This document shows positions 32,780 through 37,565 of a stretch of 64,000 bases of DNA, piece by piece; positions within the stretch are counted from its first letter, which is position 1, and the number at the start of each line of letters is the position of its first letter. Origin of the DNA: Promethearchaeati archaeon SRVP18_Atabeyarchaeia-1. GTDB taxonomy: Archaea > Asgardarchaeota > Atabeyarchaeia > Atabeyarchaeales > Atabeyarchaeaceae. Location of the stretch: assembly GCA_037308085.1 (NCBI GenBank), contig CP147779.1, forward strand, positions 1,664,001-1,728,000, given 5' to 3'. The notes below the pieces were generated by a model. It was not told where the DNA came from. It worked only from the letters and a program-made list of their open reading frames with translations, and made no database searches. A program made the position numbers and the translations under genes.

Positions 32780-33361
32780 ATGCGCACTTTGAAGCTGCAA
32801 TTGAGGCGTGCAGTGTTTCATCCACTGAAATTTCTTAGGTCTCTGGGTCCTTTCGCGCTTGCGCATCATCCTGGTTGCGAGCAATTCGCGAATCACTCCC
32901 TTAGACTTAGGAATCACCGTTTCTGCATTGGATGCTTCATAGGCTACCCTGCGTTCATTGCGTCGATAGTCATTCTCTGGATCTCATCATTCCTTTTTGG
33001 CATAGGCTTTGGCTTCATTGAAGCGATTATTGTTGGAATCGCCTTCGAATCAGCAACAATAATAGTCAAGGCGCTCCATGCCGGGGAATCGGCTCATGCC
33101 AAGATCGCCGTGAAAAGCTCTCAGGGAGTAGGGCTTGGATTCATATTCTATCCCTTCCTCATGTTGCAGGCGCCCATCATCTTCAAGGTGTACATTCTAT
33201 TCATTATATGGTCTGCTTTCAACCTGATCATAGGCGCGGTAAGGCTGTACGAGACTGGGAGGACATGCGAGGCGTGCGAGTACAAGTCGAGGTGGAGTAA
33301 GTGCCCAGGCTTCAGGGAGACTGTGAAAAGACTCCGCAGCTCAGGGTTCATAACCGACTAG
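32780..33361 (+). CDS. Hypothetical membrane protein with His/Cys clusters
   Basis: HHPGC...FCIGC, four TM segments, CEAC...CPG. Confidence 0.7.
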   Translation: MRTLKLQLRRAVFHPLKFLRSLGPFALAHHPGCEQFANHSLRLRNHRFCIGCFIGYPAFIASIVILWISSFLFGIGFGFIEAIIVGIAFESATIIVKALHAGESAHAKIAVKSSQGVGLGFIFYPFLMLQAPIIFKVYILFIIWSAFNLIIGAVRLYETGRTCEACEYKSRWSKCPGFRETVKRLRSSGFITD

Positions 33362-33570
33362 AGCTGGCCCAGAAGTCAGGATCTCAAGATCGCGTTTCCA
33401 GTTATTCAGGACTATCGGGGGTGCCGTTGTGAGTGGTTCCCTTATTCTCCAGTCAGGTTGCTGAAAAATGGTACCCTTAAATACGGGAGAGTACCCTCAA
33501 TAATATGAGGGGGGAGGGGGTTCCCCCTTTAAAAGAGCCACCCGCCCCCATTTTCTATTTTGTGGAGCTC

Positions 33571-34831
33571 CGCTCAGTTAACTCTTCGGGTGATAGTTGG
33601 TGCCGTTAGCTTCTCGGCCGTATGGCGGCTTTATTAGCCGAAGTAGCCCCTTTTTCGGGTATGCAAGCTGTCAAAGCAGTCAAGCAGAGCTACACGCCAC
33701 CAACCGAACTACTCAACCTCCTAGACGAGTTTAGAAGAATGGTGAATGACTGCATACGGATTGGCTTAGCTGAAAATGCCACTTCGATGAAGGCGCTCTC
33801 AAAGAAGGCATACCATGAACTCGCAGGATGCGACGCGCCAACCTACTACCGCCTGACGGCGATCAGCAAAGCCACCGGAATCCTCCGGAACTACAGGCAC
33901 GCGCTGAGAAAACAGCCCAAGGCGAAGAGACCGCACGCGGCTAAGCTCATGCTCACCGACTGCTACGGCTTCAGGATAATCAGCGGCGAGCTCAGACTCC
34001 CCATAAGGGCAAAAGAGTACGTATACATCCCGCTGAACGCCTACACACTGCGGTCCATTGAGGGCTGGACCGTGCGTTCAGTCTGCCTGACCACCTCCGC
34101 CGTATCCCTGACTTTCTCCAGGGAGGTTGATCAGGTTGAGCCTGCGGGGCTAATCGGGATAGACCGCAACCTCGACAACGTAACCATTGCGTCCTCAGAT
34201 GGAGATGCGAAGAGGTATGACCTCTCGAGGGTAACTGAGATCAAGGAGAACTGCAGGCAGGCTAAGCGGGGCTTCAAGCGGAACGATTGCCGCGTCAGGG
34301 GGCAGCTCTACTCCAAGTATGGGCGAATCCAGAGGAGCAAGGTAAATTGGGTACTGCACAACGCTTCTGCTGATATAGTGAAGCGGGCGAAGGAGAAGCG
34401 GTTCGGCATAGTCATGGAGGACATTAGGGGCATCCGAAAACTCTACAGGAGGGGAAACTGGCAGGGCAGGGACTACAGAGCAAGGATGAACGGCTGGAGC
34501 TACGCCGAGCTGCAACGGCAAATAGAGTATAAGGCACGCTGGGAAGGTATCCCAGTGTTTTATGTTAACCCATCCAAGACTTCCTCACTCTGCGCGACAT
34601 GTGGTTCACCAATAACCGAATGCGCGGGGAGGAAGGTCTACTGTCCAAGATGCTGCAGCAGGCTCGTGGACAGGGATGAGAACGCGGCTTTGAACATCGT
34701 CGGCGCAGGGCTGCGGTTCGGCCTGAAGGGAGTGGCAGGTGAAGCGGTGAAGGGGAACCCTGAACGCGGAAAGGTAATCCCCGGAGCAGATGCCACCCAG
34801 CTAACTCATCACCCGAAGAGTTAACAGAACC
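33571..34831 (+). mobile_element. 1,261-bp tnpB-carrying non-autonomous element with 24-bp terminal inverted repeats and 8-bp flanking direct repeat
   Basis: Left end CGCTCAGTTAACTCTTCGGGTGAT (33571-33594) vs reverse complement of right end GGTTCTGTTAACTCTTCGGGTGAT (34808-34831), 21/24 identical. TGGAGCTC at 33563-33570 and 34832-34839 abuts both ends. Confidence 0.85.
33661..34824 (+). CDS. tnpB: RNA-guided endonuclease TnpB (IS605 OrfB/Cas12f-like)
   Basis: RuvC-I GIDRN, RuvC-II VMEDI, QIEYKA, zinc finger CATC...CPRC, RuvC-III DRDENAALNI; likely start ATG 33661. Confidence 0.93.
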   Translation: MQAVKAVKQSYTPPTELLNLLDEFRRMVNDCIRIGLAENATSMKALSKKAYHELAGCDAPTYYRLTAISKATGILRNYRHALRKQPKAKRPHAAKLMLTDCYGFRIISGELRLPIRAKEYVYIPLNAYTLRSIEGWTVRSVCLTTSAVSLTFSREVDQVEPAGLIGIDRNLDNVTIASSDGDAKRYDLSRVTEIKENCRQAKRGFKRNDCRVRGQLYSKYGRIQRSKVNWVLHNASADIVKRAKEKRFGIVMEDIRGIRKLYRRGNWQGRDYRARMNGWSYAELQRQIEYKARWEGIPVFYVNPSKTSSLCATCGSPITECAGRKVYCPRCCSRLVDRDENAALNIVGAGLRFGLKGVAGEAVKGNPERGKVIPGADATQLTHHPKS

Positions 34832-34963
34832 TGGAGCTCTCTTTCTGGTGCAACCGCTGTTTTGCTGCGGTCGGTATTCTGGCAAGAGAAGAGAGCGCGG
34901 TATCATTATTCAGCTCATCTGATTTTGGTGGGAGCCCTAATCTGCCAGCTTTTGGGAGGATCA

Positions 34964-35197
34964 TCAACGTCGGCTGTAGCTTGTGGCTAATGTAACGAAA
35001 ACCAGCATTAGGGAGGCTATGGCGAGCACTGCCAGTCCCGAGACCCCGACCTGCAGTGCGAAGAGCGTCACAAACATCAAAGCTCCGAGAGATCCGAGCA
35101 GGGTAACTAGGGTCACCGCTACTAGCCTTCTCATATACTGTCTTATCGCCAGCCTGTAGTTGTATGATACGTTCGCGTCAGCCAAGTTTAGCGCCAC
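34964..35197 (-). CDS. Small membrane protein (2 TM)
   Basis: 77-aa hydrophobic ORF, GTG start preceded by GAGGT, divergent from the helicase. Confidence 0.55.
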   Translation of the reverse strand: MALNLADANVSYNYRLAIRQYMRRLVAVTLVTLLGSLGALMFVTLFALQVGVSGLAVLAIASLMLVFVTLATSYSRR

Positions 35198-35300
35198 AAC
35201 CTCAAATCACTCAAGAAGAACTCGCCAAACTATTTATCGCAATCTGATAATTGTAGATTGAATCAAGAGGAAATCCAAAGAATAACGCAGTGGATTCCGG

Positions 35301-37565
35301 ATGTCAACAAAAAAGCCAAGGACTTTTGCAGGAATCATTGGTCAACTCAAGAAGTCGCGTGCCCGCGACGTTGTCAATGTCTACGTCGAGAAAGAACAGC
35401 TGCCCTCGTATGGATGTTCGGTCGGAGCCCTCGGGCTCTCCGAGTCCGTGATTGGCGCCTTAGAGCGGAGTGGGGTTTCGCGGTTCTTTGCCTTCCAAGA
35501 GAAAGCAATAGGGAGGATCAGGCAAGGCGACAACGTCCTTGTAGTCGCTGGAACCAGTATGGGAAAGACCGAGAGCTACCTCACGCCCGCCCTTGAATAT
35601 GCCACAAGGAATCTCTCAAGATGCATAGCCCTCATAATTTACCCGACCAAGGCACTGGCAGCCGATCAGGCTGAGAGGATATCCAAGTTGACCCAAGTCA
35701 TCTTCGGGGTTTCCTTCGCCAAGTATGATGGAGACACAACTGAGAGTGAACGGAGAAGGATAATGGCTAATCCCCCATCCATACTGATATCTAACCCTGA
35801 TATGCTTCACTTCCACCTACAAGACCCGTGGCTTCAGGAACTCCTCTCGTACCTCAAGTACGTTATCGTAGATGAAGTTCACAATTACTCAGGCGTATTC
35901 GGCAGCCACGTTCACCACATAATCCAGAGGCTGAAAAGGTTCGTGAGAGAGGATTGCCAGTTTGTAGCTTCCTCGGCAACCATCGGAAACCCAAAAGAAT
36001 TCGCCGAACTACTTTTCGCAGAGGAGTTTTCCCTAGTGACGTCGGATAAGGACTGGAGGGGGAAGCGCTCACATGTCATGATTGCTCCCCTACGCAGCAA
36101 ATACACGGAGGCAGTATACCTCGCTGAAATGCTTGTCCAAAGCGGACTCAAGACTATTATTTTCGCTGACAGCCACTTGAGCTCCGAACTCGTGAAGAGC
36201 ATCGCCGATGAGAGAAATCTGAACATGGGAATCCACCGGTCAGGTCTACTCAAAGAGCACCGGAGATCAGTCGAAAGCGCATTCAAGGAAGGTCAAATCA
36301 AGACGGTAGTAGCGACTCCTACACTTGAGCAAGGAATAGACATCGGCGATCTTGACGCTGTAGTACTGATAAAGATCCCACCGACTTTTAGCCGATACAT
36401 CCAAAAGGTTGGGCGCGCCGGAAGGAAGGGCAGGGAGTCAGGAGTATTCCTAGTAATCGGTGACGACCCAATCTCCAACTACTATGCTACCCACCCTGAC
36501 GAGTTCTATCATTCTACGCCAGAGCCAGCATACATCGACCCAGAGAACCCCGAAGTCCTGAAAAGGCAGATCGTGAGCATGGCGTATGACCAGCCCCTAG
36601 CAGACCGGGAAATAGATGAGATTGCCGAGAAGATCAAATCGGTCGGCACAGTAGTTGCCGGCCTACTGGAGGAAGGCTACCTACAGAGAATGAAAAACAT
36701 ACTAACACCTACGAGAAAAGGAGTGGCGCTTCACCAGTCTACGAAACTGAGGGGAACAGGAGAAGCCACAAGAATCTACACAATGGACAACAAATACATC
36801 GGTGACCGCTCTTTGCCAATGGCCGCCAGGGAGCTACACCCAGAGGCAATCTATCTGCATGGAGGAACCCAATACAGAGTCATGAGCTTTGAAGGTCGCA
36901 GAGCAATAGTGGACAGGATGCCATTCAGGAGCAGACAATTCACAGTAGCGCGCTACTATTCAGACATCAAGGAATATGAGACGAAGATGGAAAGGAGAGC
37001 CTTCAACGTACAGATAGAATATGGCGCCGGGACGATCTCGCACGTAGTAGACGGCTACTATGAGAAAGATAGACTGACAGAGAAAACCCTCGCCGAAAAC
37101 AATCTAGAAGAACCAATCATTTACGATTTCCCAACCAAGATCATCAACTTCAAATTGCCTCTCAAAATTACTTGGTCTCCCGAACAGAAGGGAAGCGCAT
37201 CACATGCTGCAGAACACATTCTGATATCTGCCGCTGTAACGTTGACAGGCGCGGACCAGGCCGAGATGGGTGGAATATCATACCCCGACGGCTCAATCGC
37301 AATCTACGACGGCGCATACGGAGGCTCAGGCTTAACTCGTCTCCTGTTTGATCGAATGGAAAGAGCGTTTGAAAGAGGAGCTGAAATGCTCGCGACATGC
37401 AAATGTGGACGGGAAGACGGGTGCCCCAAGTGCACATACTCCCCCTACTGTGGCAACAACAATAAGCATCTCTCGAAGAATGGCGCATTGACAGCTCTGA
37501 GAAAAGTACTGGGAGGCAAAGGAACGGAAGTGGAGAAAAAACCAACTGGAAAGTCAATAGTATAA
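35301..37565 (+). CDS. SF2 DEAD/DEAH helicase with DUF1998 (Hrq1/YprA/SftH family)
   Basis: GTSMGKT, YPTKAL, DEVH, SATIGNP, GIDIG, GRAGR; C-terminal C.C..GCPKC. Confidence 0.93.
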   Translation: MSTKKPRTFAGIIGQLKKSRARDVVNVYVEKEQLPSYGCSVGALGLSESVIGALERSGVSRFFAFQEKAIGRIRQGDNVLVVAGTSMGKTESYLTPALEYATRNLSRCIALIIYPTKALAADQAERISKLTQVIFGVSFAKYDGDTTESERRRIMANPPSILISNPDMLHFHLQDPWLQELLSYLKYVIVDEVHNYSGVFGSHVHHIIQRLKRFVREDCQFVASSATIGNPKEFAELLFAEEFSLVTSDKDWRGKRSHVMIAPLRSKYTEAVYLAEMLVQSGLKTIIFADSHLSSELVKSIADERNLNMGIHRSGLLKEHRRSVESAFKEGQIKTVVATPTLEQGIDIGDLDAVVLIKIPPTFSRYIQKVGRAGRKGRESGVFLVIGDDPISNYYATHPDEFYHSTPEPAYIDPENPEVLKRQIVSMAYDQPLADREIDEIAEKIKSVGTVVAGLLEEGYLQRMKNILTPTRKGVALHQSTKLRGTGEATRIYTMDNKYIGDRSLPMAARELHPEAIYLHGGTQYRVMSFEGRRAIVDRMPFRSRQFTVARYYSDIKEYETKMERRAFNVQIEYGAGTISHVVDGYYEKDRLTEKTLAENNLEEPIIYDFPTKIINFKLPLKITWSPEQKGSASHAAEHILISAAVTLTGADQAEMGGISYPDGSIAIYDGAYGGSGLTRLLFDRMERAFERGAEMLATCKCGREDGCPKCTYSPYCGNNNKHLSKNGALTALRKVLGGKGTEVEKKPTGKSIV

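What the first reader, a model, noticed from the sequence alone, without database searches (positions are those of the whole stretch)
33563..34839. TnpB carried by a TIR/TSD (IS6-like, DDE-type) element rather than an IS200/IS605 or IS607 element
Seen: an intact tnpB (D/E/D RuvC residues present) is bounded by 24-bp inverted repeats (21/24 match; right end reads GGTTCTGTTAACTCTTCGGGTGAT inward). These abut a perfect 8-bp direct repeat TGGAGCTC on each side. There is no transposase inside, and the tnpB stop codon lies within the right repeat. Established: IS200/IS605 (Y1) and IS607 (serine recombinase) elements lack terminal inverted repeats and target duplications, whereas IS6-family ends begin GGTTCTGTT/GGCACTGTT and make 8-bp duplications. 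Inference: this is a non-autonomous RNA-guided-nuclease transposon mobilised in trans by an IS6-like DDE transposase. I cannot confirm novelty without a literature and database search.
Basis: partly seen in the sequence, partly recalled or inferred. Interest (0 to 1): 0.9.

Follow-up and report, generated by a model that had tools for sequence, protein, structure and literature searches.

The report
TnpB nuclease riding IS6-like transposon ends
A 1.26-kb mobile element in an Asgard archaeon carries only the RNA-guided nuclease TnpB and its guide RNA between the inverted ends of an IS6-like DDE transposon. A transposase encoded on larger elements with the same ends most likely moves it; TnpB on DDE-type elements is already published, but this IS6-like partner and its target layout appear not to be.

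Summary
Window 33571-34831 is a 1261-bp element with 24-bp inverted ends (21/24), an exact 8-bp duplication (TGGAGCTC) and one intact tnpB whose stop codon lies in the right end.

It is not chance. The same genome, probably Ca. Atabeyarchaeum deiterrae group 1, holds 15 or more such elements in three TnpB families, plus 257-bp miniatures. Their 8-bp duplications all differ in sequence. The same layout occurs in other Asgard, Bathyarchaeia and Nitrososphaeria genomes.

Two cargo transposons in this genome (6.55 and 4.4 kb), and others in sister genomes, carry an IS6-like SWIM+DDE transposase between ends 23-24/24 identical to the TnpB families' ends. Movement in trans is therefore the best reading.

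Two things are new here. A conserved guide-RNA scaffold with strong covariation ends exactly at the right end, and its last helix uses the inverted repeat. A TAM-like TTG (TTA in the second family) sits immediately 5' of the left duplication in 12/12 (7/11) insertions, so an empty site would read TAM plus guide match.

TnpBs linked to DDE transposases, and solo TnpBs with the same ends, were published by Altae-Tran et al. 2023. I found no mention of an IS6 partner. This scan has seen the same kind before on other DNA. Verdict: a new variant of a known kind.

The parts
33560..33562 (+). TTG, a TAM-like motif immediately 5' of the left target duplication
   Evidence: TTG occupies this position in 12/12 independent insertions of this family, its miniatures and its relatives. 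The background frequency of TTG in the genome is 0.019.
33563..33570 (.). Left copy of the 8-bp target-site duplication, TGGAGCTC
   Evidence: Other copies have different 8-bp duplications.
33571..33594 (+). Left terminal inverted repeat, 24 bp, degenerate at its outer 6 bases
   Evidence: Matches the right end at 21/24.
33630..33636 (+). TTTATTA, a likely archaeal TATA box about 28 nt before the probable start codon at 33661
   Evidence: Read from the sequence. The box is kept in the 257-bp miniature elements. Its promoter function is inferred.
33622..34824 (+). tnpB ORF (400 aa; probably starts at 33661, giving 387 aa) with RuvC D181/E266/D352 and a zinc finger
   Evidence: Relatives align from residue 13-16 onward.
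34703..34831 (+). Predicted omegaRNA scaffold overlapping the tnpB 3' end and running to the last base of the element
   Evidence: Conserved in 21 sequences from four archaeal groups. It has 22 pairs, 15 of them with compensatory changes. 95.4% of cells are paired, against 24-42% when the partners are slid. Its 5' limit is where the miniature elements begin to match.
34808..34831 (+). Right terminal inverted repeat (reads GGTTCTGTTAAC... inward). It holds the 3' half of the last omegaRNA helix and the tnpB stop codon.
   Evidence: Helix 5 pairs 34800-34805 with 34820-34825.
34832..34839 (.). Right copy of the 8-bp target-site duplication
34832..34851 (+). Predicted omegaRNA guide: the duplication plus the right flank, about 16-20 nt
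   Evidence: Inferred from TnpB biology. Sequence conservation among copies stops exactly at 34831.

Best explanation
This is a non-autonomous transposon. Its cargo is a tnpB gene and its omegaRNA, packed between the 24-bp terminal inverted repeats of an IS6-like DDE transposon.

Shown here: the element has IS6-type ends (GGTTCTG...) and 8-bp target duplications at every well-preserved copy. Larger elements in this genome and in sister genomes encode an IS6-like SWIM-zinc-finger DDE transposase between matching ends. A conserved, covarying RNA structure overlaps the tnpB 3' end and runs to the last base of the element, with the right inverted repeat forming part of its last helix. Insertions lie with TTG immediately 5' of the left duplication.

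Inferred: the DDE transposase binds both ends in trans and inserts the element with an 8-bp staggered cut. Transcription from a TATA-like box in the left end produces TnpB and an omegaRNA that reads out of the right end, so the guide is the 8-bp duplication plus the right flank. An unoccupied allele then reads TTG, duplication, flank, which is TAM plus a full guide match. TnpB can cut that allele and homologous repair from an occupied chromosome copy re-installs the element. This is the IS605-style homing or retention logic transplanted onto a DDE element.
For: 1. Ends and duplication in the window.
2. At least 15 elements with the same ends and unrelated 8-bp duplications in this genome. Exact 8/8 duplications also occur in Atabeya-2, another Asgard MAG and Bathyarchaeia, and one at 7/8 in Nitrososphaeria.
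3. IS6-like transposase. Pfam PF13610 scores 65 bits against a cut-off of 27. NCBIfam IS6 covers model positions 1-201 of 202 at 120.7 bits. The best of more than 5000 plasmid matches are all annotated as IS6 family, at about 30% identity.
4. The transposase-bearing elements have matching ends and 8-bp duplications. T6.5 (549276-555829) has TGGAGAAC 8/8 and a right end 23/24 to this family. T4.4 (614149-618567) has ends 24/24 to family B. The Atabeya-2 6.2-kb element has TGGATTTC 8/8 and an end 23/24 to the miniature family. The end of G001:C238 is 23/24. End type therefore co-varies between each TnpB family and a transposase-bearing element.
5. omegaRNA covariation.
6. TTG in 12/12 and TTA in 7/11 insertions 5' of the left duplication, with no mirror motif on the right.
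7. The eight TIR-type TnpBs form one clade (support 100/97) among the 32 full-length TnpBs of this genome. Other TnpB families in the same genome show no such ends or duplications.
8. Published precedent for DDE-linked TnpBs with inverted repeats and for solo TnpBs with the same ends: PMC10691335.
Against: No transposition event, empty allele or transcript was observed, so trans-mobilisation rests on shared ends only. The copies of this family are about 85% identical to each other, so there is no sign of a very recent burst. The left end is degenerate at its outer 6 bases in several copies, which might impair transposase binding. The transposase of the 4.4-kb element is truncated and has an internal stop. 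The transposase scores 4 bits below NCBIfam's IS6 cut-off and has an extra N-terminal SWIM and zinc-ribbon region, so it is IS6-like rather than a typical member. IS6 elements are thought to move by replicative cointegrates, which leave no empty donor site, so the benefit of TnpB here is uncertain. An orientation-specific 3-nt target motif is unusual for a DDE transposase and is not explained.
Confidence: 0.8

Rival explanations
1. Target choice is coupled to TnpB. The TTG/TTA next to every insertion exists because TnpB, through protein-level TAM recognition, helps place the DDE transpososome. Alternatively, only TAM-adjacent insertions can be driven to high frequency by RNA-guided homing. On this view the motif is not an intrinsic preference of the transposase. 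The element and its mover are as in the best explanation; only the origin of the motif differs.
For: The motif is orientation-specific with respect to tnpB and differs between TnpB families: TTG for A and the miniatures, TTA for B and C, TTT in two more distant relatives. It sits exactly where a TnpB TAM must sit relative to the guide read out of the right end.
Against: TnpB-less elements that carry the transposase also show TTG, TTA, CTG or TAG at one side, and their duplications all start with TG. That hints at a preference of the transposase itself. The sample is only four elements. No mechanism for TnpB-assisted DDE insertion is known outside CAST systems.
Confidence: 0.2
2. The element is an ordinary IS200/IS605 (IS1341-type) tnpB-only element moved by a Y1 TnpA. 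On this view the inverted repeats are just omegaRNA or end hairpins and the flanking repeat is the reused target site.
For: Three Y1 transposase genes exist in the genome. The right inverted repeat does take part in an RNA hairpin. A short motif 5' of the left end is typical of IS200/IS605 target sites.
Against: Y1 transposition makes no target duplication, yet 8-bp duplications of unrelated sequence flank at least 15 copies here and more in other phyla. The same 24-bp ends bound DDE-transposase elements that lack tnpB. The other TnpB families in this genome show neither feature.
Confidence: 0.03
3. A different, unidentified enzyme moves these elements, for example a Cas1-like casposase as in Asgard aCas1-TnpB loci. 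On this view the IS6-like elements merely share similar ends by descent.
For: Asgard TnpBs linked to Cas1 homologues and flanked by repeats are published (PMC10691335). The transposases here are few: two loci in this genome, one of them broken.
Against: The only Cas1 in this genome is a single gene elsewhere. An 8-bp duplication and GG-initial ends fit IS6, not casposons. End subtype co-varies between TnpB families and DDE elements.
Confidence: 0.04

Closest known systems
DDE-transposase-associated TnpB branches (DDE-1 to DDE-6) and solo TnpBs with the same ends (Altae-Tran et al. 2023, PNAS; PMC10691335)
   Same: TnpB lies inside inverted terminal repeats. The tnpB 3' end is close to the transposon end. 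Solo TnpBs share ends with transposase-bearing elements and are proposed to move in trans.
   Different: The only DDE families named in the texts I could read are IS630 (the paper itself) and ISL2, IS630 and IS1031 (review PMC13565253). No IS6-type partner, 8-bp duplication or TAM-outside-duplication layout is described. Here TnpB and transposase were never found inside the same element. I could not see the paper's supplementary files, so overlap with one of its branches cannot be excluded.
IS1341-type (tnpB-only) members of IS200/IS605
   Same: About 1.3 kb, with tnpB as the only gene. The omegaRNA overlaps the 3' end and the guide is read from the right flank. A short TAM-like motif lies 5' of the left end.
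   Different: IS200/IS605 elements have no terminal inverted repeats and make no target duplication. This element has both, and 8 bp of duplicated target lie between the motif and the left end.
IS6 family (IS26, IS257/IS431; long zinc-finger forms such as ISCpe7)
   Same: 8-bp target duplications, short GG-initial inverted repeats, and a DDE transposase homologous over HTH plus catalytic core.
   Different: Typical IS6 elements are about 0.8 kb with one ORF and almost never carry passenger genes: one case is listed in Varani et al. 2021 (PMC7986276). Here the transposase has an added SWIM and zinc-ribbon N-terminus and sits in 4.4-6.6-kb cargo transposons. The ends are 24 bp, and non-autonomous derivatives carry TnpB.
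Fanzor (eukaryotic TnpB homologues) in TIR/TSD DNA transposons
   Same: An RNA-guided TnpB-family nuclease is carried as a passenger of DDE-type transposons with inverted repeats and target duplications (PMC3627910).
   Different: Fanzors are eukaryotic or viral and belong to different transposon superfamilies. This element is archaeal, and the TnpB is a compact typical form with the DRDxN motif.

Membership tests
TnpB (OMEGA RNA-guided nuclease) | RuvC-like D/E/D catalytic triad with a zinc finger between RuvC-II and RuvC-III | tested here: met
   D181, E266 and D352 are present, with CxxC at 324 and 341. The DRDENAALNI motif is identical to that of ISDra2 TnpB.
TnpB (OMEGA RNA-guided nuclease) | Match to curated family models above their cut-offs | tested here: met
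   Pfam PF07282 scores 65.7 bits against 26.3. NCBIfam NF040570 guided_TnpB scores 108.9 bits against 100.
TnpB (OMEGA RNA-guided nuclease) | Structured omegaRNA overlapping the gene's 3' end and ending at the element's right end | tested here: met
   22 pairs, 15 of them with compensatory changes. 0 of 500 shuffles reach the observed values, and slid controls give 24-42% paired against 95.4%. No Rfam family matches. Expression was not tested.
TnpB (OMEGA RNA-guided nuclease) | TAM-dependent, RNA-guided DNA cleavage | not testable with these tools
   The only evidence is positional: TTG lies 5' of the sequence that the guide would match.
IS200/IS605 (IS1341 group) | No terminal inverted repeats and no target-site duplication; moved by a Y1 TnpA | tested here: not met
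   24-bp inverted repeats and 8-bp duplications flank at least 15 copies.
IS6 family (ends and partner transposase) | 8-bp target-site duplication | tested here: met
   Seven copies are perfect and seven are 7/8 in this genome. Six relatives have 8/8. The transposase-bearing elements have 8/8, 7/8, 8/8 and 8/8.
IS6 family (ends and partner transposase) | Short terminal inverted repeats beginning GG | tested here: met
   The right ends read GGTTCTGT... in all copies. The likeness to the IS257 and IS26 ends is from memory, not tested.
IS6 family (ends and partner transposase) | IS6-type DDE transposase | tested here: inconclusive
   Pfam DDE_Tnp_IS240 scores 65 bits against 27, so that test is met. 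NCBIfam transpos_IS6 covers the full model but scores 120.7 and 116.2 bits against a cut-off of 125. The best tblastn hits are all annotated as IS6 family, at about 30% identity. It is homologous but divergent, with an extra SWIM and zinc-ribbon N-terminus.
IS6 family (ends and partner transposase) | Compact element of about 0.8 kb with a single ORF | tested here: not met
   The transposase-bearing elements are 4.4, 4.9, 6.2 and 6.55 kb and carry cargo: a type IIG restriction-modification enzyme, a ParB-like protein and HTH proteins.
IS6 family (ends and partner transposase) | Replicative cointegrate transposition | not testable with these tools
   No data.
DDE-associated TnpB (Altae-Tran 2023) | TnpB within inverted terminal repeats shared with elements that carry a DDE transposase, with the tnpB 3' end within 250 bp of the end | tested here: met
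   The stop codon lies 7 bp from the element's end. Shared ends are shown.
DDE-associated TnpB (Altae-Tran 2023) | Placement in one of the published branches DDE-1 to DDE-6 | not testable with these tools
   The supplementary files and the tree are not held.

The most novel reading that the evidence does not exclude
The invariant, orientation-specific TTG (or TTA) just outside the 8-bp duplication may mean that DDE target choice and TnpB TAM recognition are functionally coupled in these archaeal elements. Either the IS6-like transposase has evolved an asymmetric target preference that matches its passenger's TAM, or TnpB itself helps site the insertion. This would be a natural, CRISPR-free case of a DDE transposon cooperating with an RNA-guided nuclease. 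The miniature elements that carry only a promoter and an omegaRNA would act as satellites of it.
Probability: 0.2. Interest if true: 0.85.

Novelty: new variant of a known kind. Interest (0 to 1): 0.6.

Why it matters
TnpB is the ancestor of Cas12, and its biology has been worked out almost wholly in IS200/IS605 and IS607 elements. Those excise without a scar and make no duplication. This is a well-populated natural system in Asgard and related archaea, with three TnpB families, guide-RNA-only miniatures and cognate transposase-bearing cargo transposons in one complete genome. In it the same nuclease-and-guide module is fitted to a DDE element that duplicates its target. The TAM-duplication-element layout shows how the guide can still define the empty site. 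It also makes two questions testable: how a DDE-borne TnpB obtains a usable TAM, and whether homing pays for a transposon that may replicate rather than excise. Finally, it extends the IS6 family to large cargo transposons in archaea.

Tried and rejected
- **Empty allele.** Contigs of four metagenome runs were laid on window 33000-35400. No contig bridged the site, and the left flank had no cover in two runs. Only the break points of other copies at 33570/33571 and 34831/34832 were informative. No RNA holder was listed.
- **Flanks of other copies.** Flanks seen in those contigs were searched in this genome as possible empty sites. None was found.
- **Orthologous locus.** The locus in Atabeya-2 (L067) and in the same-genus MAG (L068) lacks the element. 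The intergenic DNA there is too diverged to place an exact empty site.
- **Rfam.** No known RNA family matches 33400-35000.
- **Transposase ends in other phyla.** I looked for GGTTCTG-type ends around transposase homologues in Nitrososphaeria and other MAGs. The 1.5-kb flanks were too short. With 10-kb flanks one complete 4.9-kb element with an 8/8 duplication was found, and three loci gave nothing clear. A first brute-force script timed out.
- **Published supplements.** The supplementary tables of the Atabeyarchaeia MGE paper and of Altae-Tran 2023 are not held. I could not check whether these elements are among the paper's five 'IS-like transposons' or among branches DDE-1 to DDE-6.
- **Nested insertion.** I considered and rejected the idea that tnpB was simply inserted into an IS6 MITE with its own IS605 ends inside. 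The omegaRNA runs to the last base of the element and its last helix uses the inverted repeat, so the two are integrated.

Full report
**1. The observation**

Window 33563-34839 is as described.
- An exact 8-bp direct repeat, TGGAGCTC, lies at 33563-33570 and 34832-34839.
- It brackets a 1261-bp element with 24-bp ends at 33571-33594 and 34808-34831.
- The ends are inverted repeats matching at 21/24. All three mismatches are in the outer six bases of the left end.
- The only long ORF is 33622-34824. Its TAA stop at 34822-34824 lies inside the right repeat.
- The ORF is a TnpB. Pfam Cas12f1-like_TNB scores 65.7 bits and NCBIfam guided_TnpB scores 108.9 bits against a cut-off of 100.
- RuvC residues D181, E266 and D352 and two CxxC pairs are present. 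The DRDENAALNI motif is identical to that of ISDra2 TnpB.
- Relatives align only from residues 13-16 onward, and TTTATTA lies at 33630-33636. The real start is therefore probably the ATG at 33661, about 28 nt after a TATA-like box. This is inference.

**2. Not chance: a family with target duplications**

The window is G000:C1:1664001-1728000 of a complete 2.81-Mb genome. Its nearest named relative is Ca. Atabeyarchaeum deiterrae group 2, so this is most likely group 1, an Asgard archaeon.
- The genome holds three more copies of this family (A) at about 85% identity.
- Scanning for the end sequence found at least 15 bounded elements.
- Oriented by tnpB, these fall into family A (ends GGTTCTGTTAAC...), family B (nine copies...GTTACC...), family C (one copy...GTCAAG...) and 257-bp miniature elements.
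- Their 8-bp flanks match each other but differ between copies. Examples are ATAGCATT, AAGTGTTT, CTAATAAG, AAAGCTAC and TCACATGA. Seven are perfect and seven are 7/8.
- Families B and C also encode TnpB.
- Contigs of other copies in metagenomes diverge from the window exactly at 33570/33571 and 34831/34832.
- The same layout, with 8/8 duplications, occurs in Atabeya-2, another Asgard MAG (three loci) and two Bathyarchaeia MAGs. It occurs with a 7/8 duplication in a Nitrososphaeria MAG.

**3. The likely mover**

The genome has two loci matching Pfam DDE_Tnp_IS240.
- The first is a 382-aa ORF with SWIM zinc finger, zinc ribbon and DDE domains. It lies in a 6554-bp element (549276-555829) together with an Eco57I-like type IIG restriction-modification gene. 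That element has GGTTCTGTTAA... ends and an exact TGGAGAAC duplication. Its right end is 23/24 identical to the window's right end.
- The second transposase is truncated and has an internal stop. It lies in a 4419-bp element (614149-618567) whose two ends are 24/24 identical to the family B consensus.
- Atabeya-2 has a 6159-bp element with a 399-aa homologue, a TGGATTTC duplication (8/8) and ends 23/24 to the miniature family.
- A same-genus MAG has a transposase element whose end is 23/24 to family A and abuts a tnpB fragment.
- A Nitrososphaera genome that also holds a TIR-type TnpB has a 4889-bp element with a homologous transposase and an 8/8 duplication.
- The transposase covers the NCBIfam IS6 model end to end at 120.7 bits, against a cut-off of 125. 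Its best matches among plasmids are all annotated as IS6 family, at about 30% identity.
- Apart from the 24-34-bp ends, the TnpB elements and the transposase elements share no sequence.

Mobilisation in trans is therefore the best-supported inference. The co-variation of end subtype between each TnpB family and a transposase element strengthens it.

**4. Alternatives within the genome**

- Three Y1 (IS200/IS605) transposases and one Cas1 are present, so absence of rival enzymes cannot be argued.
- Y1 transposition, however, makes no duplication.
- The other TnpB families of this genome, with eight and six members, show neither inverted ends nor duplications.
- In a tree of the 32 full-length TnpBs of the genome, the eight TIR-type proteins form one clade with 100/97 support.

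**5. The guide RNA**

- The last ~130 nt of the element are conserved between family A, the miniature elements and relatives in Asgard, Bathyarchaeia, Nitrososphaeria and Methanomethylicota. Conservation stops at the last base of the element.
- The consensus fold has 22 pairs, 15 of them with compensatory changes.
- 95.4% of cells are paired, against 80% in shuffles (0 of 500 reach it) and 24-42% when partners are slid.
- The last helix pairs 34800-34805 with 34820-34825, so the right inverted repeat serves as both transposase site and RNA stem.
- No Rfam family matches.
- The miniatures keep the left end, the TATA-like box and this scaffold only. They look like guide-RNA-only satellites. This is inference.

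**6. A TAM-like motif outside the duplication**

- Oriented by tnpB, the three bases 5' of the left duplication are TTG in 12 of 12 insertions of family A, its relatives and the miniatures. The genome-wide frequency of TTG is 0.019.
- For families B and C, one relative and the 4.4-kb element, TTA occupies that position in 7 of 11 insertions. The background for TTA is 0.009. Near-variants occur in the older copies.
- There is no mirror motif after the right duplication.
- The guide read out of the right end would begin with the duplication. An empty site therefore reads TAM, then guide match, as in IS605 elements, but with 8 bp of duplicated target between the TAM and the element.
- Why a DDE insertion should be so oriented is open. 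TnpB-less transposase elements show TAG, TTA, TTG and CTG at one side, and all four of their duplications start with TG. This hints at a preference of the transposase itself, but the sample is four.

**7. Empty site**

I did not recover one. The orthologous locus of Atabeya-2 lacks the element but is too diverged to align. The contigs laid on the window do not bridge the site.

**8. What is known**

- Altae-Tran et al. 2023 (PMC10691335) report six TnpB branches associated with DDE transposases, all with inverted terminal repeats. They also report solo TnpBs with the same ends, presumed to move in trans.
- A 2026 review names the DDE families involved as ISL2, IS630 and IS1031 (PMC13565253).
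- The IS6 review lists 8-bp duplications, one passenger-carrying member, two MITEs and no TnpB (PMC7986276).
- Full-text searches for TnpB together with IS6 gave nothing relevant.
- The Atabeyarchaeia MGE paper lists five 'IS-like transposons' of 1.3 kb or more, but its main text discusses neither TnpB nor the IS6 family (PMC11529989).
- Earlier agents of this scan reached the same reading on other genomes, and first readers flagged other copies in this genome.

The principle is therefore known. The IS6-like partner, the TAM-duplication layout and the archaeal spread seem undescribed: a new variant of a known kind.

Noticed in passing
G000:C1:868840-869096 (in L009); also 537694-537951, 673143-673403, 1526452-1526708, 2198749-2199010: These are 257-262-bp miniature elements with the same type of ends. 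One has an exact 8-bp duplication (TCACATGA). They keep only the left end, a TTTATA box and the ~130-nt omegaRNA scaffold, which is 76% identical to the window's. They look like guide-RNA-only satellites. No full-length parent with their exact end subtype is present in this genome.
   Followed up: partly
L020:501-7054 (G000:C1:549276-555829): A 6.55-kb IS6-like transposon carries a 995-aa Eco57I/MmeI-like type IIG restriction-modification protein as cargo, besides the 382-aa SWIM+DDE transposase. It has an exact TGGAGAAC duplication.
   Followed up: partly
L021:501-4919 (G000:C1:614149-618567): A 4.4-kb element has perfect 24-bp ends of the family B type. Its transposase is truncated (250 aa, with an internal TGA). 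Its cargo includes HxlR-like HTH and DUF5678 proteins. Family B copies are mostly older (7/8 duplications, several broken ORFs), which fits a dead transposase.
   Followed up: partly
L076:3440-4058 (G001:C238): In a same-genus MAG, the end of a transposase-bearing element abuts a family A tnpB fragment starting at element position 481. This is either a nested insertion of the DDE element into a tnpB gene or an assembly join.
   Followed up: no
L020, L021, L077:3171-9329, L094:8296-13184: All four complete transposase-bearing elements have duplications that start with TG on the same strand: TGGAGAAC, TGAAAAAA, TGGATTTC and TGCAAAGG. They are preceded by TAG, TTA, TTG and CTG. The window's own duplication is TGGAGCTC. 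This may be an asymmetric target preference of the transposase.
   Followed up: partly
G000:C1, e.g. 1969997-1971296 and 1995542-1996841: The genome has about 41 TnpB TNB-domain hits. Two other multi-copy TnpB families, of eight and six members, have conserved right ends (…GTTGAAACCC and …CTAGAAACGG) but no inverted repeats or duplications. They are ordinary IS1341-like elements and serve as an internal control. A cluster of six tnpB hits lies at 1949-1971 kb.
   Followed up: partly
window 33622-33660: The first 13 codons of the annotated ORF are probably not translated. They contain the TATA-like box, and homologues start aligning at residue 13-16.
   Followed up: partly
L067:1641-2027 (Atabeya-2 orthologous intergenic region): The sister genome keeps the two flanking genes, separated by about 385 bp and with no tnpB element. 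The insertion is therefore specific to this lineage. The exact empty site could not be aligned.
   Followed up: yes
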